Below the pieces are notes generated by a model. It was not told the origin of the DNA. It was given only the letters and a program-made list of their open reading frames with translations, and did not search any database. The position numbers were made by a program, and so were the translations under genes. Below, piece by piece: positions 22,863 to 63,697 of a DNA stretch of 64,000 nt. The stretch lies in IMG/VR virus record IMGVR_UViG_3300021168_000025, positions 5,621 to 69,620 of that record. One strand, given 5' to 3'. The stretch's first letter is position 1. The number at the start of each line of letters is the position of its first letter. This DNA comes from a virus.

Positions 22863-22865
22863 CCT

Positions 22866-26578: not shown

Positions 26579-26591
26579 GTGCTTGCCTCTG

Positions 26592-26975: not shown

Positions 26976-27126
26976 GGTGGCTTCCCGTCTTGAATAATGT
27001 GTATCTCGATCACCTGTGGCTGTCGTGGCAGCTTCGAGACGAAGACTGTAATAGCCCCAACCAGGACGGCCCCGATGACAAAAGCTCCTATCGCTGCCAC
27101 CGGTACCCAGTATTCCGATTCCCACT

Positions 27127-28526: not shown

Positions 28527-28534
28527 TTTTAGCG

Positions 28535-28582
28535 CAAAAAAAGATACCCCCGGCGAACCCTAGAAGGTTCAGCCAGGGGTAT
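28535..28582 (-). terminator. Intrinsic terminator
   Basis: GC hairpin followed by a T7 tract on the minus strand. Confidence 0.7.
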
Positions 28583-28609
28583 AGCAGAGAAGGAACTTAC
28601 CCGCAAGGC

Positions 28610-29164: not shown

Positions 29165-29174
29165 GAGTCACTCC

Positions 29175-29495
29175 TTAGCAGGTAGTGGTACCGCCGCCAC
29201 CGGTATCGGTTGAACTATACGAAGTGTCAACGTGGTGGTGGCTACCGCCGATGTCACTGTGGTGTGTTGTGTGACTGTGGTGGTGCGACGAATTACCGGT
29301 GTCGGTATTCCGGTGGTGTGTTTCCGCTGCCGGCTTGGGAGTGTCCGTTATCAGCGATGTGACCAGTACGGTATTCATCGTCGTGTTCATTGTCGCCTCA
29401 TCGTCGTCGCGCTTCTTGCGAGCGGCTTCGGCTTCCTGGCGGGCGCGCGCCTCCTGTTGCTGGCGACGTGCCTCGCGGTGTCTTTTCCACAACAT
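29175..29495 (-). CDS. His/Thr-rich small protein
   Basis: AAGGAGTGACTCATG start; the RBS is the last array repeat. Confidence 0.6.
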   Translation of the reverse strand: MLWKRHREARRQQQEARARQEAEAARKKRDDDEATMNTTMNTVLVTSLITDTPKPAAETHHRNTDTGNSSHHHSHTTHHSDIGGSHHHVDTSYSSTDTGGGGTTTC

Positions 29496-29651
29496 GAGTC
29501 ACTCCTTTTCAATGCTTCTGTCCTGGAGAGGATTGGTTCACTCCCGAATGGTGTTTCTGTCATTCAACTGGGTTCACTCTTGAGATTTGTGTCTGTCTCT
29601 TCATTGGGTTCACTTTCCCCTGGTGTGTCTGTCATCCAACTGGGTTCACTT
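29496..29651 (-). ncRNA. TIGR-type dual-repeat array, block 3 (4 units)
   Basis: + strand GGTTCACT(C/T) at 29535, 29571, 29607, 29643 (36-nt period) alternating with GT(T/G)TCTGTC at 29553, 29589, 29625; 9-nt variable spacers. Confidence 0.9.
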
Positions 29652-30506
29652 CACATCGAGTGCGCGGTCGATCAGTAACTCAGTCTGTAAGGTGCCTAAG
29701 GCAAACTGGGTCAGCATCGCGCGATCCGCCGGATCGACAGCGGGGCTGATCGCGGTTTGCAGTGTTACCGCGACATACGCCAGCTTAGGGTAACGCTTGT
29801 GATGCTGCTCGACAAGCGGCAGCCCTACATGCTGGCAGAAGCGCAGATAATTCGCCTGGGTGGCGTTGCTCTCGACCGAACCCGGCAGCTTGAGCGCCAT
29901 CATCCAGTGGATGAAGTCAAACTCCTGCCCCCAGAACCCGACTTCCTTGGCCTTGATGTTGGTCTGTAACCGTTGGGTGATTTCGAGTGCATCGTGGTCA
30001 CCCAGGTACGGCCAGATGTCGGCGTAGAGGAAGTCCACCGGGAACCCCGGCTGGTAGCTGTGCGCGTCACCGATGATCAGTTCCACTTTGCGGAACCCGA
30101 CCCACTCGTTTGGGTCGATGGTACGCTTCCATAGGTTCACCACGCTCTTGTCCTTTTCGAGGACAATGACGCGGGTCACCTCAGGCTTGCGGATGATGTT
30201 GTACAAATAGAACCCCATACCCAGCCCGGCGACGACGACAACCCCCCTTGCCGCCGCGATGTGAGGCTGGTGTGACTCAAGTTCCATCGGTGTCAGTGAC
30301 ATCCACTTGAGCCAGTTGTTCTTGACCTTTTGCACAAACATCCAGCCGTTAGGCACAAAGTTGTGCGGTCGCCAGTAACCTATGACACGGTCACCGGACG
30401 GGTACGGGGCGCATTTCCACTTACCGATGTTGACCGATTTGTAACTGGGTACAAACGGGTCGGGCCACGGCAGCGGGTAGTGTGGGAAGAGAATTGTTTT
30501 TGTCAT
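29646..30506 (-). CDS. Class I SAM-dependent methyltransferase-like (spermidine-synthase-like) protein
   Basis: VVVAGLGMG, VIVLEKD, IIGDA, DFLYADIW. Confidence 0.75.
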   Translation of the reverse strand: MTKTILFPHYPLPWPDPFVPSYKSVNIGKWKCAPYPSGDRVIGYWRPHNFVPNGWMFVQKVKNNWLKWMSLTPMELESHQPHIAAARGVVVVAGLGMGFYLYNIIRKPEVTRVIVLEKDKSVVNLWKRTIDPNEWVGFRKVELIIGDAHSYQPGFPVDFLYADIWPYLGDHDALEITQRLQTNIKAKEVGFWGQEFDFIHWMMALKLPGSVESNATQANYLRFCQHVGLPLVEQHHKRYPKLAYVAVTLQTAISPAVDPADRAMLTQFALGTLQTELLIDRALDVK

Positions 30507-30525
30507 AGTCTGTCCCTCCTAGAAA

Positions 30526-30786
30526 GGTTCACTCTACTGGTCTGTGTCTGTCGATGGGATTGGTTCACTCGATTTCCGTGTTTCTATCCGCACGCGAGGC
30601 TCACTCAACTCTGTTGTTTCTGTCTTGACACTGGGTTCACTCATCGTGTGTGATTCTATTTTTCCCTGATGGGTTCACTCTGCCTTCACACTATCGACTC
30701 GTCATTTCTGAAGCGCACTCCTGGTGCGATGTTTCTGTGTCCGCAACTATGGTTCGTTCGGGGATCATGTGTCTAGCCGATCGCGT
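30526..30786 (-). ncRNA. TIGR-type dual-repeat array, block 2 (about 7 units, partly degenerate)
   Basis: GG(T/C)TCACTC at 30526, 30562, 30598, 30634, 30672 and GGTTCGTTC at 30751; second repeat at 30544, 30580, 30616, 30652, 30731, 30769. Confidence 0.88.
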
Positions 30787-30790
30787 GACT

Positions 30791-30826
30791 AAAAGAAAAC
30801 CCCGCCCGGATCAAACCGGGCGGGGC
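30791..30826 (-). terminator. Terminator-like hairpin
   Basis: CCCCGCCCGG-TTTGAT-CCGGGCGGGG-TTTTCTTTT. Confidence 0.75.
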
Positions 30827-30830
30827 AGTG

Positions 30831-31337
30831 TTACTTCCTCTTGTGTTGCCGTGACTCAGGATCACACACGGGTAGCGGACGTTGCCGCATCCCGTTAGGC
30901 ACATTCTTCTCCTGTTCCGCCACATCTCGCTCGGACCAGCCGAAGGGGATGCGGTGTTCGTCGTCGGCGGTTAGGATACACCAAATGTGGTACTTGTTGG
31001 TCTGATCCACTTTACGTGACTCAGCCGGGTAGATTTCCAGCCCCTCACACTCGGGACCGGCAAGCTGGTTCTTGATCGCCTGGAAGTCTCGCCAGTCACG
31101 AAAGATCACCCCACCGTCACGACGGCGGATGTTGATCTGCATACACGGACCAAGCTGCGGGTGATCAAAGGTGTGTGTCGCAATTTGGTACTTGTCGTTG
31201 ACCCAGATGGTTTCCCGCGCGATCTCGTCATTGAGAATCTTGCGGGCTTCCTCGAAGCTGACCCCCATTGTACGCACGGTCGCCTCGATCAGCTTGTCGT
31301 CGGCTTTGAACTTGTCTGCCTTGATTAGTGGTGTCAC
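30831..31337 (-). CDS. Conserved phage hypothetical protein
   Basis: DWRDFQAIKNQLAGPECEGLEIYPAESRKVDQTNKYHIW; TCTAGGAGGA RBS. Confidence 0.7.
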   Translation of the reverse strand: MTPLIKADKFKADDKLIEATVRTMGVSFEEARKILNDEIARETIWVNDKYQIATHTFDHPQLGPCMQINIRRRDGGVIFRDWRDFQAIKNQLAGPECEGLEIYPAESRKVDQTNKYHIWCILTADDEHRIPFGWSERDVAEQEKNVPNGMRQRPLPVCDPESRQHKRK

Positions 31338-31353
31338 TTTCTCCTCCTAGATG

Positions 31354-31543
31354 AAGGTACTCTAATCACATGATTCCATCGCTACGGATGGTTCACTCCG
31401 AACTTATGTTTCTGTCCTCACACGGGGTTCACTCTCTCTTGTTGTGTCTGTCTAGCTGATTGGTTCACTCTGTTCATGTGTGTCTGTCATACGGGATGGC
31501 TCGTTACCCTTGACGTGATTCGGTCGCGTGTTTTGACTCGTTC
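31354..31543 (-). ncRNA. TIGR-type dual-repeat array, block 1 (5 units)
   Basis: GGTTCACTC at 31390, 31426, 31462 with variants at 31354, 31498, 31535; second repeat at 31372, 31408, 31444, 31480, 31517. Confidence 0.9.
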
Positions 31544-31546
31544 CGT

Positions 31547-31578
31547 CAGAAACGCGCCACCGGTTTCCCGATGGCGCG
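31547..31578 (-). terminator. Hairpin between the Tas-like gene and array block 1
   Basis: GCGCGCCATCGG-GAAA-CCGGTGGCGCGT-TTCT. Confidence 0.6.
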
Positions 31579-31616
31579 CATGCTTTCATCTTGTGATTCA
31601 GTTCCTACCTCTGGCT

Positions 31617-32750
31617 CTAAGCGGCCTTCCTGCGCGGAATCGGTGACGGGATGTAGTGCGCGTGACCGAGTTGCGCGATGGCGAACGGTGCCGGTGCGTC
31701 TTTGCCGTGATGCCGCCAGTACCACTCCTCATGCAAGTGACTGAGGAATATCTTGACGGTGAAGCGCCGCGCCATGGCGTCGATATGTGCCGGCGGCAGG
31801 ATACCCGTGCTGTACGCTTTGTACGCATCGGTAGTCTTGCCTACGGTTTCCGCGCGCACCTTGGCAACCTCGCGGAACTCACCCATCTCGTTGCGCGTGA
31901 CCTCGCGCTCCTTGCGGCGGCGGTACAGTTGCCCATAGAAGCACTTCTCGTCGTTGCTGAACATCATGAATGAGTGACCAGCCTTCCAGCACAGGGTTTT
32001 GAACCCGGCGTTCCACGGGCGCTTCTCGCCCTTTGTCCACGGACGGTTACCGGAGAACGCGCGGAAGCTGCGGTCTACACCGATGATCCGGGGGATGCTG
32101 TCGAGGATCGCCGGGTGCGCCGCATCGCTCTCGATCACTACCTGGAAGAACGCGTGCGAGTCACCGTCAGGGTAAAGGTATGTGGCCTGATATGGCGGCT
32201 CCAGGTGTAGTGTCGGGATGACACCCTGCGGGATCGGGTTCCGGTAAGCGACACGGTAGACCGCACGCTTAAGCTCGGTATTGGTCACCGGACCCGCGAT
32301 ACCGGCGTAACTCCAAATGTGACCGACTGTAGGTGCCCGCTCGATCTTGATGTGCGCGAGCAGCCCGGCCGAGATCACCGGGCCGATACCGTACACCTCG
32401 CGCATCCAGCCGCCCATCATGTGGGATTGGGTGTAGACATCGAGCGCGGCCTTGATCTGTCCCTCCATGGTGGAGTTCTGGGTCTTTAGCCATGTGATGA
32501 TTTCGTGCGGCTCGTTGGACGCGTTGAGCGCCCGTTCCTGGCCGGCGGCGCGTTTGCGGTTTTCCTGCATGATGTAGTAAGCGTCAACTAGGAAACGCGC
32601 CTCGGTGTCACCGAGTGTCGCCGCGCCCTTACGCAGATCGCGGGTGAGCCGGGTGACCGGGTTTAGTTCCAGATCGAAGTCGGGTTCACCGCGCATGCAT
32701 TCACCGCGCGGCCACGGGCAGCGGTGCTCCAGCAGTGTCGTGTCAGACAT
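31617..32750 (-). CDS. Tas-like (TasA-type) Nop/IS110-related RNA-binding protein, no RuvC domain
   Basis: YYIMQENRKR coiled coil; YGIGPVISAGLLAHI...TVGHIWSYAG; KGEKRPWNAGFKTLCWK; AHIDAMARRFTVKIFLSHL; PFAIAQLGH; no DEDD domain; adjacent 36-nt arrays. Confidence 0.88.
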   Translation of the reverse strand: MSDTTLLEHRCPWPRGECMRGEPDFDLELNPVTRLTRDLRKGAATLGDTEARFLVDAYYIMQENRKRAAGQERALNASNEPHEIITWLKTQNSTMEGQIKAALDVYTQSHMMGGWMREVYGIGPVISAGLLAHIKIERAPTVGHIWSYAGIAGPVTNTELKRAVYRVAYRNPIPQGVIPTLHLEPPYQATYLYPDGDSHAFFQVVIESDAAHPAILDSIPRIIGVDRSFRAFSGNRPWTKGEKRPWNAGFKTLCWKAGHSFMMFSNDEKCFYGQLYRRRKEREVTRNEMGEFREVAKVRAETVGKTTDAYKAYSTGILPPAHIDAMARRFTVKIFLSHLHEEWYWRHHGKDAPAPFAIAQLGHAHYIPSPIPRRKAA

Positions 32751-32994
32751 GGGTTACTCCTTCCGTTAGACTTGGAACTGTGGGAACGGGACCACAGTAG
32801 GAACATATTTTCAGCGATAAGCCCGTGCTTTGGGCGTAAGTTAAGGCAGCGGTGTAGGTAGCGTGCTCTGTGTATTTCCCTTGGTTGTGTTGATGCACGC
32901 CGCCGCGTTTTCTGAGTTGTCCGCAACTGCTTTTGTGGATTGAGACGTGCGGATTGTGTGTGTTTTCGTAGGTCGTGAAAGGCATCGAAGGCAT
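32743..32994 (-). CDS. Small Cys/His protein coupled to the Tas-like gene
   Basis: H...C and CSYC residues; TCTAGGAGGA RBS; stop overlaps the Tas start. Confidence 0.6.
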   Translation of the reverse strand: MPSMPFTTYENTHNPHVSIHKSSCGQLRKRGGVHQHNQGKYTEHATYTAALTYAQSTGLSLKICSYCGPVPTVPSLTEGVTHV

Positions 32995-33046
32995 GGAAGC
33001 GTCTCCTCCTAGATAGGGGGTTTAAAGGAAGCCTTATCCTATTACC

Positions 33047-33082
33047 GAAAAAATCCCGGCAGGGCAAGCCCCACCGGGATCG
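33047..33082 (-). terminator. Terminator-like hairpin
   Basis: ATCCCGG...CCGGGAT followed by a T tract. Confidence 0.65.
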
Positions 33083-33435
33083 GGTTCTAATGCTGGAACT
33101 TTTGGATGAGCCGCTCGACCGGGGCAGTGGTCCGGTCGATCAGCGCGTGTCCCTGTGCCGGGTTGCGGCGTAGGGCTTCGAGTGAGTCAGCGGCGACCTT
33201 GCGTAACCATGACTGTAACGCTCGTAAGATCACCGCACGCTCTTCTGGTGTCAATTCCTCCAATCTATCCTCCCTTGTGAAGCTCAGTAGTGGTAGACGA
33301 CGGTGTGGTGACTGGCACACGATCCGATGATCAGTAACAGGATGAGTACCAGTAGACACCCACCGAAGTTACGGGACATGCCCATGATGACGTGGGCGAT
33401 AAGCACGCCCACGACCACCAGCAGGATGATGTGCA

Positions 33436-33912
33436 TCACGTACCTTTCTGCGGTTGGATGAGTCCCTCGATCATCTTCCCTCCGCTGTTCTCCAGCCGCG
33501 TCATGGGTTCCAGAGCGATCAGCCGGTTTCGCATACCGGGTGATAGATCGCGGACCATGTGCAACAGGATTGACGCGTTGCCGGTAGTGTTGCCCGCCGT
33601 GATGTGCACCACCTCGATACGGTCAGGGCTTTGGCTTGGTTGCACCTCGGGCGCGTCCTTGTCGAGATGGAGTGACCACCCTTCGCTGACAAAGACGAAG
33701 GCGCGACAGGTGATCTCCTGCGCCATGTTCTTGACCATCGCGAATTGCAGTGATTTTTGCAGATCGTTCTCCCACGCACACTGCATGATGTGGTGGGAAT
33801 CGTCGGCACCGATCAGGTGATACGTCGCTATCAGTTCCTTGTGCCGGCGTTCTAGTAGTACCTTGCGGGCGAACTCCTCGCCCATTTCGAGCAGTGTCTC
33901 AAGTTCGGTCAT
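33436..33912 (-). CDS. Hypothetical protein
   Basis: Cassette RBS; FVSEGW motif. Confidence 0.7.
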   Translation of the reverse strand: MTELETLLEMGEEFARKVLLERRHKELIATYHLIGADDSHHIMQCAWENDLQKSLQFAMVKNMAQEITCRAFVFVSEGWSLHLDKDAPEVQPSQSPDRIEVVHITAGNTTGNASILLHMVRDLSPGMRNRLIALEPMTRLENSGGKMIEGLIQPQKGT

Positions 33913-33987
33913 TGGTTCCTCCTAGATTTTGGTCACAAAAAACCCCCGGCACCGAAGCGCCGGGGGGATACTATCACGCCGCCGTGA

Positions 33988-34371
33988 TCACGCCGACTCT
34001 GCTTCTGTCGGCAATTGCTCGATGGCGTCAATGTGCTCGAAGTCGGGCGCGTCGGGTAGTTCGGGTGTCTCGACCTCATCGAGATCGAGTCCCTCCCATT
34101 CATCGATCCAGGCTTCGTAGGCCTGCCCGGCGTCGCCCTCCTGCCACTTGTCGGAACGCTCCTCCTGGTAGTCTCGCATATCTTGCACGATGCCGTCGCG
34201 CCATTCGGTGACAGCGGCAAGGGAAGCGTTGTACGCATCGATGGCGGTGGCGAGTTCGTTGTGTGCCAGTTCGAACTTCTCCCAGGCGTCATCGATCTCC
34301 CCCTTCTTGGTGGCGAGATCGGTAATATGGGCATTAAGTTCGCCCTGTTGTGTCTTATTGAACTTCTTCAC
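33988..34371 (-). CDS. Acidic coiled-coil protein
   Basis: Single-gene cassette; ERSDKWQEGDAG. Confidence 0.7.
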   Translation of the reverse strand: MKKFNKTQQGELNAHITDLATKKGEIDDAWEKFELAHNELATAIDAYNASLAAVTEWRDGIVQDMRDYQEERSDKWQEGDAGQAYEAWIDEWEGLDLDEVETPELPDAPDFEHIDAIEQLPTEAESA

Positions 34372-35179
34372 TGTGATCCTCCTAGAGGTTTGGTGGTTAG
34401 TGACGGGATGTCACACAAAAAGAAAACCCGGTCACCGAAGTGACCGGGTTACTTTCTACCACACCGCGATAGGTGGGGCTAGTGGGTTTGTGTCTCATCG
34501 CGGAACTTAGCCACAACCTTTTGTGCGGTCGCGCCGTAGCGCGTCAGCTTGCGTTCAGCCAATCTGCCTTTTGATGACAGGTAACGCACAAAGACATGCG
34601 GCCGATCACTCCACGCTTTGTGAATCCGGTATTCTCCGGTGCGTAGTTTGACAATTCCATCGCCGGGCCGATCTTCGGGCGGCGGTGGCCATACCATGAC
34701 GCTGGTCATTGGATATCTCCTAGCAGTTCTTCGGGTCGTTTGATCACCTCGGTGGTGATGTCAAACCGGGACAGCCGCACCCGGTTCATCGCCGGGTAGA
34801 CCTTCCAGGCTAGCGCGAGGTAGTGCCTCGCTTCCTCCTCGGTGTCAAAGGTACGCTCGCTGGCGGGGATATTGCTATCGGTTAGCCGCCACCTTGTTAG
34901 TGTCTTTTGTGTCATTTGTTCTCCTTGATGCAGCGTCCGAATTTGCAAGTGTTAGGGGTTGTGCAGTTACCGCAGTAGATCGCACGATTGAACTCCGTTG
35001 TTGCGGGGATTTCCTGAAGCCGCTTCCTAATGAGTTCCGCGTGTACTGTGCGTTCGTGCTGTTGCACACCCTGCGCCGTCTTAAAGACTTTGGCGCAGAA
35101 CCCGCACACAACGACACCGGCACCCGCGACACTCGGGGGTGCGGTGCCGCGCCGCGTGCGGCGGTGCCAGTCACCACGT

Positions 35180-35395
35180 TCAGACTTCATCGTCCTCATC
35201 CTCGGGGAATAATCGATCGAACTCCTCCTCGGTGGCACCGCTGAGCAGGAACTCCCGCTGTCCCGGTGTCAGGTTTGGGAACACATCCTGGATCAATGCG
35301 CCGGTATTCTGCCAGCGGTCGATCTGCGCTTGAGTCACCGGAAGCTCCAACTCGGTTTCCACCCCGGTGAAGATGGATTTGCGTTTGACTAGCAT
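35180..35395 (-). CDS. Hypothetical protein
   Basis: LIQDVFPNLTPGQREFLLSG; cassette RBS. Confidence 0.7.
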   Translation of the reverse strand: MLVKRKSIFTGVETELELPVTQAQIDRWQNTGALIQDVFPNLTPGQREFLLSGATEEEFDRLFPEDEDDEV

Positions 35396-35466
35396 GTTAC
35401 TCCTCCTAGGTTAGGTTACACAAAAGAAAACCCCCGGCACGAATGCCGGGGGTCAAGTGTAACATC

Positions 35467-35805
35467 CTACGCGTACGCTCCGGTAGCGGTGTCGTCGTGC
35501 GGCTTGATTGATCGACGCACGATGACGCGTTGCACCTTACCGCGTGACTGCGGTCCAACCAGATAGTATCCGTTGTCGGTCAGTTCCTTTTTTATGGCAG
35601 CTTCCTGATCGACTGTTGCCCCGTTCTTTTTGGCCCAAGCACAAGCTGCACCGCGTGTGGCGCGGATGCCGTCCTTGTCGGTACGATCTTTTGGCATCGG
35701 GAAGTATTCCGTCTGCCCGTTGTCGTTAAAACGGACAACGAGAAAGCCGCCTTCGATCCGCACACTCATTCGTCTGGTGGATTTATGATGAAAGTAGGCA
35801 CCCAT
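35467..35805 (-). CDS. Hypothetical protein
   Basis: Bounded by two junction hairpins. Confidence 0.6.
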   Translation of the reverse strand: MGAYFHHKSTRRMSVRIEGGFLVVRFNDNGQTEYFPMPKDRTDKDGIRATRGAACAWAKKNGATVDQEAAIKKELTDNGYYLVGPQSRGKVQRVIVRRSIKPHDDTATGAYA

Positions 35806-36087
35806 AACACACAGTCCTTTTTGTAGTGGTTAGTGACACCAAAAGAAACCCCCGGCACCTGGATGCCGGGGGTTTAGGTCAGCGCCCCGCGAGTGCGCGA
35901 GCCTGAGTCAACCGCGCGAGCGCGAGATGGCGGTGTGCCATTTCGAGATGCGAGATCGCGATCAGGTATTGCTGCGTCGCGACCGGATCGGCACCGTCAG
36001 TCTCGGTACCAAACAGGAAGTTTTGGTACAGATCATGCACGCGCTTCTCGTAGTCTTGGAGCGTGCTGTGTGTGAACTCCACTAAAA

Positions 36088-36882
36088 TCACCTCCTTCCG
36101 ATACGGTTGGGGTTGATGTTACCGCCGACTTGCTGGTCTAGGCCGATCCGGTCACCGGCTTTCCAGCCGGCCACCGCGCCACCCTGGTGCTCGATGTTGG
36201 CGAGGCTGGTAGCCTTGGGATCGGGCAGGATGCCCTGCTGCCGCAGGTAGTCCCGTGCCGCGTCCTGCGCCTGCTCGTAGAGCGAGCGAACCGCCGGCAG
36301 GTTGGTGCCGGGGATGCCGCTTTCCTGCGCCTCTAGAAGCTTCTGGTGCAGGCGGTAGCGCACCCTAGCGGTGCAGGCGTTCATAAACGACACCCGGAAC
36401 GCCGGCCGCTCTTTGGTCGGCCATTTCCGCACCTCCTCGCGGCATAGGGTCTGCATCGCGCGAGCGATGTACTGACCCATCGCCTTGGCCACCGTCACGT
36501 CAACCGGCTTGCCGATAAAGTTGTGTCGCAGGTAGGCTGTCCGGTGGTTACCGGCGATCAGCGGGAACAGCCCGTCGTTCAGCCCGTGTTTTTCGATCCA
36601 GTCGGCCGGGAACGTTTCGTAGTAGTAGCCACAGAGGTACAGTTGTGCCACCCCGTTCAACAGTGACTTGATCCATTCGGACGAATCCGTCAGGAAGTCA
36701 GTGTCACGGATGATGGTGTCGCCGGCCTTGGCCACGTCCGACATCGACAGGTGGTACTTGACCAGAAGTTCCTGTACCTTACCGGAACAGGCGTCGATCT
36801 CGGCCTCGGTGCGGCCGGCGGTTTCGAGCAGAGCCTTGATCCGGCGGATCGCCGACTCACGCTCCTTTCTTTCGTCACTCAT
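36088..36882 (-). CDS. DUF2786-like protein
   Basis: RRIKALL...TEAEIDAC...QELLVKYHLS N-terminal helical hairpin; GWKAGDRIGL. Confidence 0.7.
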   Translation of the reverse strand: MSDERKERESAIRRIKALLETAGRTEAEIDACSGKVQELLVKYHLSMSDVAKAGDTIIRDTDFLTDSSEWIKSLLNGVAQLYLCGYYYETFPADWIEKHGLNDGLFPLIAGNHRTAYLRHNFIGKPVDVTVAKAMGQYIARAMQTLCREEVRKWPTKERPAFRVSFMNACTARVRYRLHQKLLEAQESGIPGTNLPAVRSLYEQAQDAARDYLRQQGILPDPKATSLANIEHQGGAVAGWKAGDRIGLDQQVGGNINPNRIGRR

Positions 36883-37042
36883 TGTCCACCTCCTAGAAGC
36901 TGGGCGATAATGACACCTATTGCTACGGGGAACTGGGCGAGGATGATTAGCCCCACCGCTATTTTGACGTATTTCATCGTGTCCTCCTAGATGAGAGCTA
37001 CACCAAAAGAAAACCCCGCCGTGTTACCGGCGGGGTTTTGGG

Positions 37043-37390
37043 TTAGGGTCTAGTGACCGGTTGCCAATCGTCGTTGGGGTCGCGCTTCTTGGGCGGCAGC
37101 AAGGCATCGAGCCATGGGCGCGGTTCCATCTTGCGCTTTGCCGGTACAGCCTGGGTGATGGTGGCGACTACCTGCGGTGTTGAACCGTTAGTGACGGCGG
37201 TGATCACCATTGGCGGCTGGTTCTTGTGCTTGTTTCCACAAGCCATGAAGAAGCAGATAATCCAGCCGATGATCGTCCACCCGAGTAACAGGTTCAGGAA
37301 CAGTATCTGTCCCCATCGGGCGTGACCGCGACACGCGGCGATGACGGTAGGCGTGAAGTACAAGATCAGGAAAACGGCAGCTAGTAACAT
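37043..37390 (-). CDS. Superinfection immunity (Imm) membrane protein
   Basis: LYFTPTVIAACRGH...ILFLNLLLGWTIIGWII, the T4 Imm-type signature. Confidence 0.88.
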   Translation of the reverse strand: MLLAAVFLILYFTPTVIAACRGHARWGQILFLNLLLGWTIIGWIICFFMACGNKHKNQPPMVITAVTNGSTPQVVATITQAVPAKRKMEPRPWLDALLPPKKRDPNDDWQPVTRP

Positions 37391-37466
37391 TGGAAGTTCC
37401 TCCTAGATGCGAGTTACACAAAAGAAAACCCCCGGCACCGAATGCCGGGGGTTGTTTAGTGACGGG

Positions 37467-38471
37467 TTAGGCCTTGGCGAACTCGACCGCCATTTCGAGC
37501 GCGCGGCGCTTCATCTGCGCACCGTTGCCGTGCCACACCGAGAACAGCCGGTTGTCGTCACGACCCATGACGTGGTCAACACAATAGGTGACCGCATTGA
37601 ACGCGTTCCACCAAGTGTCACGGAACAGTTCCTGTCCCGGCGCGGTGAGCAGCGACTCACGCAACCGCTTCATGTTGCGGTTGTCCTCGAAGTCGATCAT
37701 CTCGGCTTCGGTCACCTCCTCGTCGTGCTCCAGCCGCAGCACGCCATGGAAGAAGTCGGTGACATCATCCTCGCGCGCCCGGACGCCCGACAGCAGCTTG
37801 GCGGTATGTGAGTACGCCTTGATGCCTTCGTGCGCCAAGCCCAGCGTGCGCTCAGCCTCGGCCTTGACTTCGTCATCAAACGGCCGGTTGTGGAGGTGGC
37901 GGAAGGCACCGACCTTGTTCTTGCCGTCCAGGGTGCCGCCCAGAGAACTGGTGAGGGTGTTCTCGCAGACGACCCGCACTGCCGTCATGCAGGCGTTGAG
38001 CGCATAGCCGAGAACGTGCGGCTGCGACAGCAGCACGTAGCACTCGGTCTTGTCGCCCCTGCCCAGCGTGAACGCGCCGTCCTTGATCTTGGCCAGCACC
38101 CAGACAAAGCGACCGTTCCTGAGCGCGCCGGCCGTTTCCATCTCCATGTCACCGGCTTCCACGAACCGCTTGAAGAAATCAAACACGTCGTGGTTCTGCA
38201 CCGGAATGTAACCGCGACCAACGGTGTCGAGCACCGTATAGTCTTTGTTACGGACGAGCGCGAACTCGTCTGGTACGATCCGCATCCGCTGCTTCTCGCC
38301 CGGTGCCACCGGCATCGGGAAGTAGAGCGGGTGCTTGGACACCGTCCAGTCAAGCCCGGCCGCGACAAGCATGTCATCGACCGACATATCGTTATCGACC
38401 GGAACACCTTCACCGTGCCAGGGCAAGCCACCGGCCTTGCGATACGCAATCGATTCGACGTTAGCAGGCAT
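37467..38471 (-). CDS. DUF932/DUF945 phage-plasmid protein
   Basis: PWHGEG, AGLDWTV, METAGAL, VRVVCENTL, TWWNAFNAVT. Confidence 0.88.
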   Translation of the reverse strand: MPANVESIAYRKAGGLPWHGEGVPVDNDMSVDDMLVAAGLDWTVSKHPLYFPMPVAPGEKQRMRIVPDEFALVRNKDYTVLDTVGRGYIPVQNHDVFDFFKRFVEAGDMEMETAGALRNGRFVWVLAKIKDGAFTLGRGDKTECYVLLSQPHVLGYALNACMTAVRVVCENTLTSSLGGTLDGKNKVGAFRHLHNRPFDDEVKAEAERTLGLAHEGIKAYSHTAKLLSGVRAREDDVTDFFHGVLRLEHDEEVTEAEMIDFEDNRNMKRLRESLLTAPGQELFRDTWWNAFNAVTYCVDHVMGRDDNRLFSVWHGNGAQMKRRALEMAVEFAKA

Positions 38472-39364
38472 GTTACTCTCCTCCTAGAGGGGATCGGGTA
38501 GTGACGGGATTGTCACCCACCCACACAAACAGAAAACCCCACCGGGTTGGAACCGGTGGGGTTTGGTTACATCCATGTCACATCCTTCTGGCGACACCCG
38601 TGTCGCCGCGCGTGATCTCGGGCACCATACCCCAGATCGTGTCATAGACCTTGCTGGTGACAAGGTGCCACGGGGCATCGACCATGTCGGTACCCATCCA
38701 GCGGCGTGGCCCGCCGTCCTGGTAACAAGCCCAGAACTTGATCTCGACACCTTCCGGTGTCTGGGTCAGGTCGGCTTGGTAGTGACCCAGTTTGCTCGCG
38801 ATGGTTAGTGTCTTCATCACCGCACCCGTTCCAGTTTGTCGGTGTCCAGGTTCAGCTTGGCGGGTTTCCACCGCGCCTCGCCGACCAACGTCAAAATCAT
38901 GCACTGACGCTCACCGTGTTCGTCCACTTCGTAGAACATCTGGACGTTGTCTCTCGTCGGCCCGACTTCGGCCCAAACACTGACGGGCTTGCTAGCACCG
39001 TCTTCCTTGTAGGTGAGCCGGCAGTATTCTGGGCCATGTTCCAGATACCGTTTCATGTTGTCCTCCAGTGACGGTAACAGATACCGTCACCCTAACAAAA
39101 AACCCTGCCGGTGCGATCCGGCAGGGTTAGTGTCATCGTCCGGCTTTCTCGTTGTCCTGGCCCGCTGCCCAAGCAGCGTAGGCGAGGCTGTTGCGCAGGT
39201 AGCGGCTGGGCTGACCATCGTAGCCGTTCCAATACGCACTGCGGTGCCCTGCGCCTCGGAGAGGCTTACCGTTCCACCAGAACTCGCCGGTCTTGTCCAG
39301 CCCGGTCACCCGGCAGGTTTCGTACATTTCCTGCATCTTGGGGTCTTTGAACCGCCGCTTCATG

Positions 39365-39871
39365 TCACATCTCCATCTTTTTGGAACATTCTGGACCGAT
39401 CCCAGCTTCGACACTGGATGGGACCGTAAGTGTCCTACCGCAGCGGCCACAATTGCCCGAATGCCGGACAATCATGTCGTTCGGGATGTGACCGCGCTCG
39501 ACATGGGTCCAGAAGTACACAAAACCCTTCACGCACGGGGCATCGGCCTTGAACTTGGCCTTTGCCGTCTGCCGGAACAGGCAGCCGTTGAGCCGGGTTT
39601 CGATCAGCCCGATGTACGAATAGTCACTATCGTTATCGGGACCGCTCAGGACACCGACAAACCACCGGCCTGCCGGTGACCCGTCGTCGTTCTTCGCGCG
39701 GTTGATCTTGTACGTGAAGTGCTTGCCGGTGCGCCGTGACTCTAACGTGATCGTCGCGTGACCGGCCATCGTGTATGCGGAAGCCGCCGCCGCATCGGTA
39801 AAACCGTTGACGTTGACCAAGCCCTCGGCCGAATCGTTATCGACGGCGAGCCTGAGATCGTTGCGTGCCAT
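39365..39871 (-). CDS. DUF6011-like zinc-ribbon protein
   Basis: CGRCGRTLTVPSSVEAGIGPEC. Confidence 0.75.
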   Translation of the reverse strand: MARNDLRLAVDNDSAEGLVNVNGFTDAAAASAYTMAGHATITLESRRTGKHFTYKINRAKNDDGSPAGRWFVGVLSGPDNDSDYSYIGLIETRLNGCLFRQTAKAKFKADAPCVKGFVYFWTHVERGHIPNDMIVRHSGNCGRCGRTLTVPSSVEAGIGPECSKKMEM

Positions 39872-39947
39872 TTGATCCTCCTAGATTGAGGGGTTACACA
39901 TATAGAAAAACCCCCGGCACCGCAATGCCGGGGGTTCCTTGGTACCT

Positions 39948-40154
39948 CTAGAGGATAACGAAGTCTGCAAGCTTGTTGTAACGGATGCGGACGTTCTGCC
40001 CCGCCCAGTCACTTTTGGACGTGTACTTACCGTCCCACCGGTTACCGATGTCGGCGATGCGGAAGTCCTTACCCGCATCCCAGTCCTTTTGCACCGCCTC
40101 CGGTGTCTGGTAGTCGCGCCCATAGGCGGGAACCAAATTGACTGCGTAGATCAT
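39948..40154 (-). CDS. Hypothetical protein
   Basis: PAYGRDY...DWDAGKDF; AGGAG RBS. Confidence 0.65.
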   Translation of the reverse strand: MIYAVNLVPAYGRDYQTPEAVQKDWDAGKDFRIADIGNRWDGKYTSKSDWAGQNVRIRYNKLADFVIL

Positions 40155-40511
40155 GAGTATCTCCTACTCGTTCAGGATTGTGAGCCGAAGCTCGGGATGT
40201 GCTTTCGACGCGGACTTGAAGCGCATCAGCTTCCAGTCACCGCTCGGCGTGTTCACCACTTGGTCAACTTCGAACACCACCTCGCCGCCGGTCTTTTCGT
40301 TCCGCACGGTGATGAGCGTGTTGAAATTGTGACCGTGACGCTGTGACAGGTTGGTAAACAACCCGACAAAGGTCTTGGTCCTGGTGTCGTAGGTGAACAG
40401 GCAGGCGGGGATCACTTCGTTATGAAGTGCCTTTCGACCTGACATTGTGTGTCCTCCTAGATCAGACACCAAAGGAAAACCCCCGGCACCTGAATGCCGG
40501 GGGTTTGGTGT

Positions 40512-40919
40512 CTAATCGGCAAAGTCCCACGGCAGCTTGTTGTATGCCGGTAGATTGTGGGGGCTTTGACCCTTTTTGAGTTTGTACTTGACCGCGATCT
40601 GTTTCGCGAGATCGTCCTCGACCTGTTCCAGCAAGTTGAACAGCGCCGTTTCGGGAACAGTACCTTCGCTGCACTGGTAGGTCAGGCAAGACACCGCCTT
40701 GAACCGGGCGAGCACCGGGTCGGCATCATCATGGTTGCGGTGGGCGTAGGTGAACGCCAGCGGTTTGTCACCGTAGCGTTGCCGTAACGCTTCCATGTTG
40801 AGCTTGATCAGTTCCGCACCCAACGCATCGGGCAGCATCGGCGGGTTCTCGTTGTTGAACGCGAGCACCGCGCTGACCGCGCGATCAATCGTACCGTCGT
40901 TGACCATAAACGCACTCAT
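40512..40919 (-). CDS. Hypothetical protein
   Basis: Single-gene cassette; CLTYQCSEG. Confidence 0.7.
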   Translation of the reverse strand: MSAFMVNDGTIDRAVSAVLAFNNENPPMLPDALGAELIKLNMEALRQRYGDKPLAFTYAHRNHDDADPVLARFKAVSCLTYQCSEGTVPETALFNLLEQVEDDLAKQIAVKYKLKKGQSPHNLPAYNKLPWDFAD

Positions 40920-40983
40920 TTGCTCCTCCTAGATGAGAGTTACACTAAAAGAAAACCCCCGGCATCTCTGCCGGGGGTTAGTG

Positions 40984-41217
40984 TCACCTGTCCGCTACAA
41001 AGTTGAAGTAGAAGCGGGGGCTGTGGGTGAATTCGAGGACACCCTTCACACCGTCAACCTTGCGGGTGACGATGACAAACGGGGCCATGAAACCGTGGAC
41101 GGTGAAGTCACGGCGCAGCGCCTCGGTGTCCCACCGCAGTTCAGCCGCTTCGAGATCGCGCTCGGGCTGGTTGTTGGCGAGCATCGCGCGGCGCAGGTTT
41201 TCAGTCTCGTCTGTCAC
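40984..41217 (-). CDS. Hypothetical protein
   Basis: Single-gene cassette; FMAPFV...HSPRFYFNF. Confidence 0.7.
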   Translation of the reverse strand: MTDETENLRRAMLANNQPERDLEAAELRWDTEALRRDFTVHGFMAPFVIVTRKVDGVKGVLEFTHSPRFYFNFVADR

Positions 41218-41290
41218 TAGTTCCTCCTAGAGGTTGGTTACATAAAAGAAAACCCCGCCGGTTTGACCCGGCGGGGTTATGGTGACACTC

Positions 41291-41971
41291 CTAGGCTTTC
41301 TCCTTCTTTGCCTTAGGTGGCGGCACTAACCGCTTCCCGGCCGCGTTGAGGAACCCGGCGGCGTCGAGCGTGGTGACGATATCGTCAAACGCCACCCGCA
41401 CGTACTTGGCGGTGGCCATCGCCAGGACCGCGTCCTTGGCCAAGGCTTCCTGCCCGATGTGCGGTCGCTTGACAATCACCCGCGCACCCCGCAGGAACGA
41501 TGACTCGCTCTTGGAGTAGCGCGGCGGCTCGCGGAACTTTTTCACCCGCTCACCCGTGTTGTCGAGTTCGACATCATCAAACCCAAACTCGATGTCATCC
41601 TCATCATCGATGGGGCTGTCATCGATCAGCACGCGCACGACCGGTGGGGCGGTGACCACCTGTACCGGTGCCGCAGCCGAAGCTGCCTTCTTGGCGCGCG
41701 GGGGTGGTGTCACCTTCACCGGTTCGGTGCTAAAGCCCGACCGGCGGGTCATCTCGGCGTCGTGTTCCTTGCGGACAGCGACCGCTTCCTGGACCGCGTT
41801 GTCCAGCTTGCGGTGAGTGTAGAACCCACGCTTGCTGGGGTCATTGGTACCTTGGTAAAAGCTAGCGATGATCGGATCGTCAACCCGGTAGTTGCCGAGA
41901 TTGTCACGGCTGACTTCCAGGTGGAACTTCTTGACCACCGTTTGCAGTGCCAGGGACATTTGGATTGCCAT
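41291..41971 (-). CDS. Hypothetical protein
   Basis: 226 aa, bounded by junction repeats. Confidence 0.7.
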   Translation of the reverse strand: MAIQMSLALQTVVKKFHLEVSRDNLGNYRVDDPIIASFYQGTNDPSKRGFYTHRKLDNAVQEAVAVRKEHDAEMTRRSGFSTEPVKVTPPPRAKKAASAAAPVQVVTAPPVVRVLIDDSPIDDEDDIEFGFDDVELDNTGERVKKFREPPRYSKSESSFLRGARVIVKRPHIGQEALAKDAVLAMATAKYVRVAFDDIVTTLDAAGFLNAAGKRLVPPPKAKKEKA

Positions 41972-42052
41972 AACGTTGGTTCCCTAGTGGTCGGATACGG
42001 AGTGTACCCATAGAAAAACCCCGGTCACCATTCAAGGTGACCGGGGTTTAGG

Positions 42053-42226
42053 TTACACTTTTCCGGCGTTCCGCGCCGCCTCGTCGCGCTTGCGGGCGAT
42101 GTAACTGTCAATCTCCCGTGTGAGTTGTTGCAGCCGGTCTAACTCCTTGCAGGCGTCCGGCCAGTTTTGCTGCATCACAGTGAGTGTCAGCCGCTCACTG
42201 ATGATTCGCAGATCGTTGAGGTTCAT
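42053..42226 (-). CDS. Small helical protein (not in ORF track)
   Basis: MNLNDLRIISERL...; stop just before a junction hairpin. Confidence 0.55.
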   Translation of the reverse strand: MNLNDLRIISERLTLTVMQQNWPDACKELDRLQQLTREIDSYIARKRDEAARNAGKV

Positions 42227-42228
42227 CG

Positions 42229-42561
42229 TTACTCCTTCTTCTGGTCAGGGGTCTTGCGCGCGGTGACCCGAACAGAGGCTTTCCGCGTGCTGTCCTTGGT
42301 GTGGGCGGCGAACCATTCGTCACCCATCTCGGTCTTGACAAAGTCGGTGTCAAGCGACGTGACGGTGCATTCCGGCACGATGGTGGCGGTGTACAGGTTA
42401 CCGTCGATGTACTTCCGGTCACCGGCCCGCGTCAGGAGTTCCGCGACAAACGCCTTCTTTTTCTTTTCGAAGTCGGCGACGATTGCGGAGATACGACCGA
42501 TCTCGTCAACGAGTTCGGCAGTACCCATCACGGGGGTTTTGGCTTTCGGCTTAGTCTTCAT
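42229..42561 (-). CDS. Hypothetical protein
   Basis: Cassette RBS. Confidence 0.7.
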   Translation of the reverse strand: MKTKPKAKTPVMGTAELVDEIGRISAIVADFEKKKKAFVAELLTRAGDRKYIDGNLYTATIVPECTVTSLDTDFVKTEMGDEWFAAHTKDSTRKASVRVTARKTPDQKKE

Positions 42562-42919
42562 GTGATCCTCCTAGAGGTTACACCATAAGAAAACCCCGGT
42601 CACCGAAGTGACCGGGTTTGTGTTAGGCGAAGCCCCATTCGGCCAAGCCCTCGACCAGCGAGCCGACATAGCGCGGCTCGACAACCAAGGCACCACCGAA
42701 CCACTGCGCTTCCGCATCGACGTGGTCTTCGAGGAAGATGCGGCACTCTTCAGTGATCGGGGTGATCAGGACGATTGAGCCGTGATCGGCAATGGTGAAC
42801 TCAGGCATTGTGACCATTCTCCCTAGTGAGAGGTTCTTTGGAACCCGGTGACCAACCACTGGTCACCGACTTCACACCCATAGAAAAACCCCCGGTCACG
42901 AATGACCGGGGGTTAGGTG

Positions 42920-58389: not shown

Positions 58390-58514
58390 TGTAGTTGGAC
58401 GGCGGGGCCGAATTGCCCCGCCGTTCAATGTGTTACTTGACGATATCAAATAGCGTTTGACGGTGTTACTCGGTGCCGGTTACTGTTGTCAAGACCCCTT
58501 CTAGGAGGAAGCCG

Positions 58515-62887: not shown

Positions 62888-62916
62888 TTGCAATCTAGAG
62901 GAACCGCCCCTATTTG
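62888..62916 (+). promoter_or_regulatory. Sigma70-like promoter
   Basis: A-tract, then TTGCAA-17 nt-TATTTG. Confidence 0.65.
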
Positions 62917-62922
62917 TTGCGA

Positions 62923-63142
62923 TGCAGTGAGGCGCAGGAAGCGGCTGACCGTTCCTCTGGCTCGCCGGACCAATACGCCGCCCCCCGGCGTTCGACCCCC
63001 CTGGTCGTGGTGAGCACGGTGAGGCGACAAGACGGTCAGTCCTCCTCCTAGACGGCGGGGCTGTCCAGCCACCGTAGCTTCGCACTGGACAGGTTCCCTG
63101 TGGAGGGGCAGCCGGGTAGCTTTTTGCTGCCCGGCTGTTTTT
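62923..63142 (+). ncRNA. Candidate ~220-nt small RNA
   Basis: Own promoter, long-range stem 62943-62952/63032-63041, strong terminator 63109-63142. Confidence 0.65.
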
Positions 63143-63217
63143 CTACCTCTGGACAGGTATCAACTCCCGTCCTAAACTGCGTGCCCTTCGTCCGCTTATC
63201 TAGGAAGTGGGCACCCC

Positions 63218-63697
63218 ATGATACACCGCGCTCAAAGCGGCGGCGGTCTGCCGTCACCTGTTGTCGGTTTCATCTACAACTTCTCAGTCACTAACTACTG
63301 GCGCGTATCCGGGTTTTATGATCTGGACGACCTGTGCCAGGACGGCTTGATGTGTGCCATCAAATGCCGGAACCGTTATGGGACACCCGGCGTCGATATC
63401 GCCGGCCCCCACTTTATGACACTGTTAAAAACCGCGTTTAACCGTCACCTTATCGATCTGACCCGGCATTGGGCACAGGTTGGTGATTTGGTCTACCTTG
63501 CTGACCTGGGAGCCAACGAGGTCGCGGTACGAGAGAAGTATAGCCTACCGGAACACTCGTTAGGTGAACTGGCGCGCTACGTTGAGGAGTTGCCCGATTA
63601 TCTGCATCGGGTAATCCAGTGTCTCTTGGTTGACTCGCGTTTCCGAGTTAAGCGCCGCGATGAACACGATCTGCGGCGTTTTTTATGTGACTGTTGA
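63218..63697 (+). CDS. Sigma-70 region-2-like phage transcription factor
   Basis: DLDDLCQDGLMC...FMTLLKTAFNRHLIDLTR. Confidence 0.62.
   Translation: MIHRAQSGGGLPSPVVGFIYNFSVTNYWRVSGFYDLDDLCQDGLMCAIKCRNRYGTPGVDIAGPHFMTLLKTAFNRHLIDLTRHWAQVGDLVYLADLGANEVAVREKYSLPEHSLGELARYVEELPDYLHRVIQCLLVDSRFRVKRRDEHDLRRFLCDC

What the first reader, a model, noticed from the sequence alone, without database searches (positions are those of the whole stretch)
62923..63142. Candidate sRNA exposing the exact complement of the cassette genes' shared RBS
Seen: a promoter-to-terminator unit whose linker between two stems reads UCCUCCUCCUAGA (63040-63052). About 16 minus-strand genes carry (U)CUAGGAGG(A) as their RBS (e.g. 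near 30516, 31342, 33004, 33918, 34378, 35401, 36983, 37398, 38479, 39877, 40452, 40924, 41222, 42566). The conserved CUAG extends beyond the usual 16S anti-SD pairing. Inference: one trans-acting RNA could shut off translation of the whole early regulon, including genes of the Tas operon.
Basis: partly seen in the sequence, partly recalled or inferred. Interest (0 to 1): 0.78.

Follow-up and report, generated by a model that had tools for sequence, protein, structure and literature searches.

The report
Conserved phage small RNA with anti-RBS segment
A soil phage encodes a conserved, folded small RNA whose invariant stretch is the exact mirror of the unusual ribosome-binding site used by 17 of its genes, so it may switch their translation off, but this has not been tested.

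Summary
CTAGGAGG occurs 18 times against 0.73 expected. Seventeen copies sit 5-10 nt before an ATG/GTG. The 18th is its complement in a 360-nt noncoding gap between a Toprim primase-like gene and a sigma-like gene.

The gap holds a real plus-strand RNA. Three related phage lineages share the promoter -35, the fold and an invariant UCCUCCUAGAC. Across 53 pairs, 98.6% of cells pair and 14 pairs change on both sides, against 0-1 in slid controls. G-U pairs favour the plus strand. No ORF is conserved, and no start codon follows the motif on the minus strand. Rfam has no match.

The regulon idea is only partly supported. The invariant 10 nt are the exact complement of the gene consensus UCUAGGAGGA. 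However, the complete sister phage keeps the RNA and uses CTAGGAGG at only 4 genes. The CCUCC part is predicted to be mostly paired. No expression data cover the RNA.

The closest analogue is the start-associated sequence of Cluster K mycobacteriophages. Their single reversed copy sits in a hairpin loop.

The parts
62888..62916 (+). Promoter P1 of the RNA: -35 TTGCAA (62888-62893), 17-nt spacer, -10-like TATTTG (62911-62916). The inferred start is near 62923.
   Evidence: Read. The -35 and the flanking AAATAACTTGCAAT are invariant, and TAT.TGT.G is conserved, in 4 of 4 aligned sequences. Promoter-like hexamers stand at the same place, right after the primase stop, in more distant loci L082-L088 (by eye). 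The consensus scanner did not call it.
62927..63040 (+). The 5' strand of helix 1 (62927-62933), followed by the long imperfect hairpin made of helices 3-6 (62944-63040).
   Evidence: RNAalifold and pair counts. Helices 3 and 5 have 2 and 4 pairs changed on both sides. Helices 3 and 4 pair in 100% of cells, helix 5 in 97.9% and helix 6 in 94.7%.
63040..63052 (+). The linker UCCUCCUCCUAGA. Its core UCCUCCUAGAC (63043-63053) is invariant in all relatives and is the complement of UCUAGGAGGA.
   Evidence: It joins helix 3 to helix 7, both of which are supported by covariation. Its only predicted internal partner, helix 2 (62934-62938), never varies, so that pairing is neither supported nor refuted.
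63053..63092 (+). Helix 7 (63053-58 / 63069-74), helix P4 (63061-68 / 63085-92) and the 3' strand of helix 1 (63077-83). P4 crosses helices 1 and 7, so these form either a pseudoknot or alternative folds.
   Evidence: helices 1, 7 and 8 have 3, 2 and 3 pairs changed on both sides. In relatives a U-run follows P4 and is the only terminator.
63096..63142 (+). A window-specific insertion of about 46 nt that carries a strong intrinsic terminator: stem 63109-63120 / 63126-63137, then TTTTT at 63138-63142.
   Evidence: It appears as a gap of 46-48 columns in L163, L164 and L165. The 11-pair core 63110-63120 / 63126-63136 folds at -23 kcal/mol.
63150..63178 (+). Second promoter-like site P2 (TGGACA, 17-nt spacer, TAAACT) in front of the sigma-like gene.
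   Evidence: 9 of 12 matches. It is conserved as TGGACA/TTGTCA and TAAACT/TAGACT in relatives.
63181..63220 (+). Leader of the sigma-like gene: hairpin GUGCCC (63181-86) / GGGCAC (63209-14) enclosing the RBS AUCUAGGAAG (CTAG at 63200), then the ATG at 63218.
   Evidence: ATCTAGGAA, GTGCCC and GTGGG are invariant in 4 of 4 sequences. UCUAGGAAG pairs with the linker at 8 of 9 positions, judged by eye.
25065..42574 (-). Sixteen minus-strand gene starts with (U)CUAGGAGG(A), at 25065, 30515, 31343, 33005, 33918, 34378, 35402, 36889, 36983, 37399, 38480, 39877, 40453, 40925, 41223 and 42567. These are the candidate targets.
58501..58508 (+). The seventeenth gene-side copy, on the plus strand, 6 nt before an ATG.

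Best explanation
The gap holds a stand-alone phage small RNA of about 215 nt in this phage and about 170 nt in relatives. It is transcribed on the plus strand from its own promoter just after the primase-like gene and ends at an intrinsic terminator. It folds into a conserved multi-helix structure. I propose that its invariant segment UCCUCCUAGA(C) base-pairs with translation initiation regions that read UCUAGGAGGA, blocking 30S binding. The duplex would be 10 bp, against 6 bp (AGGAGG) for the canonical anti-SD, which I take from recall because the host is unknown. In this phage lineage that sequence has spread to the first gene of 17 units, mostly accessory genes that follow a hairpin junction. 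The RNA could therefore lower translation of all of them at once. A likely older target is the adjacent sigma-like gene, whose conserved RBS AUCUAGGAAG matches the segment at 8 of 9 positions. Shown: the RNA element, its strand, its fold, the invariance of the segment, and the complementarity. Inferred: that the RNA is made, when it is made, that it pairs in trans, and the direction of the effect.
For: The motif is enriched 18 against 0.73 expected. All 17 gene-side copies lie 5-10 nt before a start codon. Within GGAGG-type start sites, 16 of 41 carry CTA and 15 carry TCTA. An A follows GGAGG in 14 of 16 CTA sites, against 10 of 26 others, so the 10-mer behaves as one unit. Both its flanks match the RNA and not the canonical anti-SD. 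The homologous RNA occurs in three lineages, with UCCUCCUAGAC invariant while the flanking stems change in a compensating way. In the pair counts, 98.6% of 207 cells pair and 14 pairs change on both sides, against 0-1 in six slid controls; 0 of 500 shuffles reached the observed value. On the plus strand 98.6% of cells pair with 17 G-U cells, against 90.8% on the minus strand. The 10-bp duplex is worth -16.3 kcal/mol, against -8.6 for AGGAGG/CCUCCU. When the whole RNA is co-folded with 60-nt start regions, 15 of 17 motif sites use at least 10 linker bases and mean ddG is -12.6. For other GGAGG sites, 8 of 22 use at least 6 linker bases and mean ddG is -7.4. As an independent analogue, in four Cluster K1 mycobacteriophages the single reversed start-associated sequence sits in the loop of a conserved hairpin in a noncoding gap (Pope 2011, PMC3203893, passages read).
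Against: The sister phage G001 (112,650 bp, complete) keeps the RNA and its segment. Yet it has CTAGGAGG at only 4 other places, and only 4 of its 61 GGAGG starts carry CTA. None of the 7 evaluable G001 homologues of motif genes carries the 10-mer. Seed and regulon therefore do not co-vary. UCCUCC is predicted to be mostly paired, with unpaired probability 0.09-0.18 in the window, 0.09-0.44 in L163 and 0.00-0.03 in L164. The -10 hexamer is weak, with G at its last position. There is no expression evidence: the one RNA run holds only 63790-63987. A single 10-mer match in 64 kb is not overwhelming, since I estimate roughly 0.05-0.1 such matches by chance, extrapolating. Co-fold energies of GC-rich RNAs are crude, and 8 of 22 control sites also touch the linker. 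Only three independent lineages support the fold.
Confidence: 0.4

Rival explanations
1. The RNA is a cis-acting leader or attenuator of the sigma-like gene. Transcripts from P1 either stop at P4 plus the U-run or, in the alternative fold (helices 1 and 7), read through. The conserved segment then masks the sigma gene's own RBS in cis. The match to the 17 gene starts is secondary or coincidental.
For: P4 and the two helices that use its whole loop all show compensatory changes, as expected for alternative folds. In relatives the only terminator is P4 plus a short U-run. The sigma leader has an invariant AUCUAGGAAG inside a conserved hairpin in all 4 sequences. In more distant phages (L084, L087) a structured RNA after the primase gene runs straight into the next gene with no terminator. 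The RNA is conserved where the regulon is not.
Against: A conserved second promoter-like site lies between the RNA and the sigma gene. In this phage an inserted strong terminator (-23 kcal/mol plus TTTTT) should stop nearly all P1 transcripts. In the co-fold, the sigma start region did not use the linker: 0 linker pairs, ddG -8.8. The complementarity to the sigma RBS is only 7-8 nt.
Confidence: 0.25
2. It is a structured RNA with another role, such as a protein sponge or partner, a mimic of the 16S 3' end, or a replication primer or origin transcript next to the primase gene. The CCUCCUAGAC block would then be conserved for that role.
For: The architecture is complex, with 8 helices and crossing pairs, which is more than a typical seed-bearing sRNA needs. 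It sits directly after the primase-like gene in all lineages, and analogous RNAs stand at the same place in distant relatives. The block is conserved independently of the RBS usage of the genome.
Against: No known family matches. Nothing in the sequence points to a particular partner. This reading does not explain why the 10-nt gene-start consensus is the exact complement of the invariant block.
Confidence: 0.2
3. The 10-bp site acts at the DNA level as an asymmetric operator for a phage DNA-binding regulator, in the way stoperators act in Cluster A mycobacteriophages. The copy in the gap is one more operator in reverse orientation.
For: On double-stranded DNA the 18 copies are the same site. 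CTAG is rare in the genome (98 against 241 expected), yet 3 copies fall in this 360-nt gap. Stoperators are named as the contrast case in Pope 2011 (PMC3203893, passage read).
Against: All 17 gene-side copies contain GGAGG and keep a 5-10 nt distance to a start codon, which is a translational signature. The block in the gap is embedded in an RNA whose stems co-vary. No candidate regulator was identified.
Confidence: 0.07
4. The motif in the gap is the RBS of a small minus-strand gene (frame 62845-63072).
For: All other copies are RBSs. A TTG lies 13 nt after CTAGGAGG, which is 10 nt after the second GGAGG, and opens a 61-codon frame.
Against: No ATG, GTG or TTG lies at 5-10 nt in any of the 4 sequences, and L164 and L165 have none within 30 nt. 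Indels of 1, 2 and 5 nt break every frame between lineages, and no ORF is shared. There is no Pfam match. Base pairing favours the plus strand.
Confidence: 0.02

Closest known systems
Start-associated sequences (SAS) of Cluster K mycobacteriophages (Pope et al. 2011, PMC3203893; passages read)
   Same: Both are asymmetric conserved motifs that contain the SD core and extend beyond it. Both lie a few nt before the start codons of some 13-19 non-structural genes that follow larger intergenic gaps. [quoted passage not shown] I found that reversed copy in a noncoding gap, in the loop of a conserved hairpin on the transcribed strand, in Anaya, Adephagia, CrimD and Angelica.
   Different: The sequence differs (GGGATAGGAGCCC against UCUAGGAGGA), as do the phage group and host. 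SAS is conserved across subclusters, whereas here the motif is abundant in one lineage only. The role of SAS is still called unknown in papers from 2024 and 2025 (PMC11373665 and PMC12699233, passages read).
Bacterial sRNAs with C/U-rich seeds that pair with Shine-Dalgarno regions (RsaE/RoxS, RNAIII, LhrC; named from recall, not from a call)
   Same: The proposed mechanism is the same: a pyrimidine-rich unpaired segment of a structured, terminator-ended sRNA pairs with the G-rich RBS of many mRNAs and blocks initiation.
   Different: There is no sequence or structure match to any Rfam family. This RNA is phage-encoded. The seed is longer and is matched by a private extension of the RBS (UCUA upstream, A downstream) rather than by the generic SD.
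Phage T4 RegA and RegB (from recall): protein-mediated shut-off of early mRNAs at their RBS
   Same: The logic is the same: one phage factor recognises a shared feature of many early start regions and lowers their translation.
   Different: Those factors are proteins, a repressor and an endoribonuclease. Here the candidate factor is an RNA, and nothing has been shown experimentally.
Structured RNA after the primase gene in more distant metagenomic relatives
   Same: The place is the same, with a promoter-like site right after the primase stop. The layout is hairpin, invariant pyrimidine-rich single strand (GUCUCCUCUGCUA), then a hairpin with 3 compensatory pairs.
   Different: It is not detectably homologous. 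The model built from these loci does not hit the window element at E up to 10, and the window-family model does not hit them. In L084 and L087 the RNA runs into the next gene without a terminator.

Membership tests
Trans-acting base-pairing sRNA (generic class) | Own promoter and intrinsic terminator, with no conserved ORF | tested here: met
   There is a conserved -35 and a conserved -10-like block. There is a terminator. No ORF is shared and indels break every frame. The -10 is weak, and no transcript has been observed.
Trans-acting base-pairing sRNA (generic class) | Conserved seed that is single-stranded | tested here: inconclusive
   The seed is invariant in 4 of 4 sequences and lies between two helices supported by covariation. 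However, ensemble folding pairs UCCUCC, with unpaired probability 0.00-0.44, and leaves only UAG(A) open.
Trans-acting base-pairing sRNA (generic class) | Complementary sites at the RBS or start of target mRNAs | tested here: met
   Seventeen sites have an 8-nt exact complement, and most have 10 nt. In the co-fold, 15 of 17 use the linker.
Trans-acting base-pairing sRNA (generic class) | Regulation shown by compensatory mutation | not testable with these tools
   This needs reporters in the unknown host or in a surrogate.
Any Rfam 15 family | Score at or above the family's gathering threshold | tested here: not met
   There were 0 matches in the window. At E up to 10, the only hits were terminator-shaped miRNA and RAGATH-5 matches at 14.8-19 bits. 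There were 0 matches in 9 related loci.
SAS-type start-associated motif | Asymmetric motif with an SD core at a fixed short distance before the starts of many non-structural genes | tested here: met
   Seventeen of 17 sites lie 5-10 nt before ATG or GTG. The genes include a superinfection immunity protein and DUF932, DUF7168 and DUF7694 proteins.
SAS-type start-associated motif | Conservation beyond what can pair with 16S rRNA | tested here: inconclusive
   The host and its 16S are unknown. Against the canonical anti-SD (from recall), only AGGAGG pairs. UCU upstream and A downstream are conserved in 15 of 16 and 14 of 16 sites.
SAS-type start-associated motif | The Cluster K consensus GGGATAGGAGCCC | tested here: not met
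   The motif here is UCUAGGAGGA. This is an analogue of SAS, not a member.
Terminator/antiterminator leader (attenuator) | Mutually exclusive helices, one of which is a terminator | tested here: inconclusive
   P4 crosses helices 1 and 7, and all three co-vary. This could be a pseudoknot or alternative folds.
Terminator/antiterminator leader (attenuator) | The regulated gene depends on the leader's promoter | tested here: not met
   A conserved promoter-like site P2 lies between the RNA and the gene. The window also has an added strong terminator.
Protein-coding gene on the minus strand | Start codon 5-10 nt after the RBS, and a conserved frame | tested here: not met

The most novel reading that the evidence does not exclude
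Some phages run a private Shine-Dalgarno code. A phage small RNA carries an anti-SD-like segment extended by a few phage-specific bases. A set of accessory or early genes carries the matching extended RBS. One RNA can then gate translation of the whole set, or the set of mRNAs can titrate the RNA away from a regulator gene such as the sigma-like gene, acting as a timer. The same logic would explain the start-associated sequences of Cluster K mycobacteriophages, unexplained since 2011, whose single reversed copy sits in a hairpin loop.
Probability: 0.25. Interest if true: 0.85.

Novelty: new variant of a known kind. Interest (0 to 1): 0.62.

Why it matters
If the pairing is real, it would be an RNA counterpart of protein-based early shut-off such as T4 RegA and RegB. 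It would also show how a phage can address a chosen subset of its own mRNAs by extending the RBS beyond what the ribosome reads. It turns an old open question, what start-associated sequences do, into a direct experiment: delete or mutate the single reversed copy. Independently of mechanism, it adds a structured phage RNA family supported by covariation that is not in Rfam. The family lies between replication genes and a phage sigma-like factor.

Tried and rejected
Known RNA families: Rfam at gathering threshold on the whole window gave 0 matches. At E up to 10 on 62800-63250 it gave only terminator-shaped hits. On 9 related loci it gave 0 matches. There are no tRNA or tmRNA genes.

Close relatives by DNA in the phage collection: none. 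By primase protein, identity was at most 35% in phages and at most 38% in IMG/VR and JGI metagenomes. These are too far for this gap.

Pattern scans for more members gave only chance matches. One match lay in a tape-measure gene, one in a coding region (L172), and three in high-GC MAG contigs.

Homology between the window RNA and the SDBT-type RNA after the primase gene is not supported by either covariance model.

Expression: the only RNA run laid has one 198-nt contig at 63790-63987 and nothing on the RNA, which says nothing either way. DNA contigs of runs X3 (62893-63127, 1 other letter) and X5 (62911-63059, 8 other letters) cover the element, but the differing letters were among rows not shown.

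RNA.duplexfold on long sequences gave unrealistically long duplexes and discriminated poorly.

The plus-strand ORF 62914-63051 and the minus-strand ORFs are rejected.

Earlier notes of this scan hold no look-alike of the RNA in other windows.

Supplementary files of the SAS papers were not opened. They may list the position of the reversed sites.

Full report
**Setting**

The window is bases 5621-69620 of a 69,620-bp virus record. Near-identical DNA is held only in soil metagenome runs. The finding lies in a 360-nt gap (62859-63217). On one side is a plus-strand Toprim-domain primase-like gene (61839-62858; Pfam Toprim_2 at E 3e-4, below the curated cut-off). It has 30-35% identical 'DNA primase' relatives in Vibrio and Edwardsiella phages. 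On the other side is a plus-strand 159-aa protein (63218-63697). It has a weak Sigma70_r2 match, and JGI names some of its relatives a sigma-24 family protein.

**The observation**

- The linker TCCTCCTCCTAGA is at 63040-63052.
- CTAGGAGG occurs 18 times against 0.73 expected, and 0 of 100 shuffles reached 18.
- Sixteen copies are on the minus strand between 25065 and 42567. One is on the plus strand at 58501. All 17 lie 5-10 nt before an ATG or GTG.
- The 18th is the complement in the gap.
- Most minus-strand copies follow a GC hairpin, a T-run and GTGTAAC.
- To avoid circularity I also took every GGAGG followed within 4-10 nt by a start that opens at least 50 codons. Of 41 such sites outside the gap, 16 are preceded by CTA and 15 by TCTA. 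An A follows in 14 of 16, against 10 of 26 other sites.
- The unit is therefore the 10-mer UCUAGGAGGA.
- Ten of the motif genes were scanned. They include a superinfection immunity protein and DUF932, DUF7168/DUF2786 and DUF7694 proteins; six had no Pfam match.

**Is the copy in the gap an RBS?** No.

- On the minus strand the first start codon is a TTG 13 nt after the motif. In relatives there is none before 29 nt (L163), or none within 30 nt (L164, L165).
- No ORF on either strand is shared between lineages, and indels of 1, 2 and 5 nt break every frame.

**Relatives**

DNA and primase searches gave only distant relatives. The sigma-like protein has 57-72% identical relatives. I therefore scanned IMG/VR with the alignment of these proteins and obtained three loci:

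- L163, from record G002 (34 kb);
- L164, from record G001 (112,650 bp, with terminal repeats, rated complete);
- L165, from record G003, which is nearly identical to L164.

All three have the homologous gap.

**What is conserved**

- The -35 TTGCAA with its upstream AAATAAC, and the -10-like TAT.TGT.G.
- The block UCCUCCUAGAC, which is invariant.
- A second promoter-like site before the sigma-like gene (TGGACA/TTGTCA, 17-nt spacer, TAAACT/TAGACT).
- The sigma leader, with AUCUAGGAA inside a GUGCCC/GGGCAC hairpin.
- The window alone has a 46-nt insertion carrying a strong terminator (-23 kcal/mol). In relatives the RNA ends at helix P4 plus a short U-run.

**Structure**

- RNAalifold, with P4 added by hand, gives 53 pairs in 8 helices.
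- 98.6% of 207 cells pair, against 31-47% when the partners are slid.
- 14 pairs change on both sides, against 0-1 in the slid controls, and 0 of 500 shuffles reached the observed value.
- Only three independent lineages stand behind these numbers.
- On the minus strand the same pairs give 90.8%, because 17 G-U cells become A-C. The RNA is therefore read from the plus strand.
- P4 crosses helices 1 and 7, which use its entire loop, and all three co-vary. This is either a pseudoknot or a pair of alternative folds.
- The invariant block joins helices 3 and 7.
- Its only predicted internal partner (helix 2, AGG...G near the 5' end) never varies, so that pairing is untested.
- Ensemble folding pairs UCCUCC (unpaired probability 0.00-0.44) and leaves UAG(A) open at 0.43-0.99, except the A of L164 at 0.07.

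**Does the seed track the regulon?** No.

- G001 keeps the block but has CTAGGAGG at only 4 other places in 112,650 bp.
- Only 4 of its 61 GGAGG starts carry CTA.
- In its homologous array, 3 of 24 listed starts carry CTA, and GGAGGU is common there.
- Eight of the 17 motif genes have tblastn homologues in G001. In the 7 whose start could be read, none has the 10-mer. The nearest are CTAGGAAGG and TTAGGAGG.
- The RNA is therefore older than the spread of the 10-mer in this lineage.
- What speaks for a link is that the spread form is the exact complement of the invariant 10 nt, including the flanks that the canonical anti-SD does not read.

**Energetics**

- The 10-bp duplex is worth -16.3 kcal/mol, against -8.6 for the 6-bp AGGAGG/CCUCCU duplex.
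- When the whole RNA is co-folded with start regions, 15 of 17 motif sites pair with at least 10 linker bases (mean ddG -12.6).
- Of the 22 other GGAGG sites, 8 pair with at least 6 linker bases (mean ddG -7.4).
- The sigma leader did not use the linker.
- These energies are crude.

**Known families**

- There is no Rfam match.
- A model of the window family finds only its 4 training sequences in 354,675 bases of 26 sources.
- More distant metagenomic relatives (L084-L087, L097) have an analogous promoter, hairpin, invariant GUCUCCUCUGCUA and covarying hairpin after their primase gene.
- Neither model links the two groups.

**Analogue**

- Pope et al. 2011 (PMC3203893, passages read) describe 13-nt start-associated sequences before 13-19 non-structural genes of Cluster K mycobacteriophages.
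- In Anaya that copy lies in the 385-nt gap between gp96 and gp97, after a terminator-like hairpin.
- In Anaya, Adephagia, CrimD and Angelica the transcribed strand puts CCUCCUAUCC in the loop of a long hairpin. One lower-stem pair changes in a compensating way.
- Papers from 2024 and 2025 still call the role of SAS unknown (PMC11373665 and PMC12699233, passages read).
- My searches found no paper that links SAS to an antisense RNA.

**Verdict**

The RNA is real, conserved and new to Rfam. Its action on the 17 gene starts is a reasonable but untested hypothesis. It is weakened by the lack of co-variation with the sister phage and by the uncertain exposure of the seed.

Noticed in passing
L177 34871-34883 (Anaya); L178 1483; L179 1536; L180 1535: The single reverse-oriented start-associated sequence of four Cluster K1 mycobacteriophages lies in a noncoding gap. 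On the transcribed strand it sits in the apical loop (CCUCCUAUCC) of a conserved long hairpin, and one lower-stem pair changes in a compensating way (GACCCG/CGGUC against GACCAG/CUGGUC). It may be an anti-SAS RNA.
   Followed up: partly
L084 1073-1208, L085 6029-6195, L086 5112-5290, L087 1919-2054, L097 898-1024: Distant relatives (primase 33-35% identical) have a promoter-like site right after the primase stop. It is followed by a structured RNA with an invariant GUCUCCUCUGCUA between a CCCG/CGGG hairpin and a second hairpin that has 3 compensatory pairs. There is no Rfam match, and no detectable homology to the window RNA.
   Followed up: partly
G001 (L166/L167), record positions about 21,600-27,800, minus strand: In the sister phage the junctions before several array genes carry a small hairpin with CUAG in its loop (GTGACGATCTAGCGTCAC, GTGACACTAGGGTCAC), a few nt before GGAGG or AAGGAG and then UAACGAUG. 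CUAG next to the RBS is therefore a shared theme even where the 10-mer is absent.
   Followed up: no
window, whole: CTAG is under-represented (98 against 241 expected from base composition). Eighteen of the 98 copies are in the CTAGGAGG motif, and 3 fall in the 360-nt gap (62895, 63048, 63200).
   Followed up: partly
window 62895-62903: The spacer of promoter P1 holds TCTAGAGGAA, a near-copy of the RBS 10-mer with one base missing. It is not conserved in L163 and only partly conserved in L164.
   Followed up: no
window 63181-63214: The sigma-like gene has a conserved leader hairpin (GUGCCC/GGGCAC, with UUC/GAA or UUCC/GGAA inside) that would partly mask its RBS. This suggests translational control of the gene.
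   Followed up: partly
G000 versus G001: The record that holds the window is 69.6 kb. The syntenic sister record is 112.6 kb with terminal repeats, and the identical sigma-like protein is also on a 113,846-bp contig. The window's record may be a partial genome.
   Followed up: no
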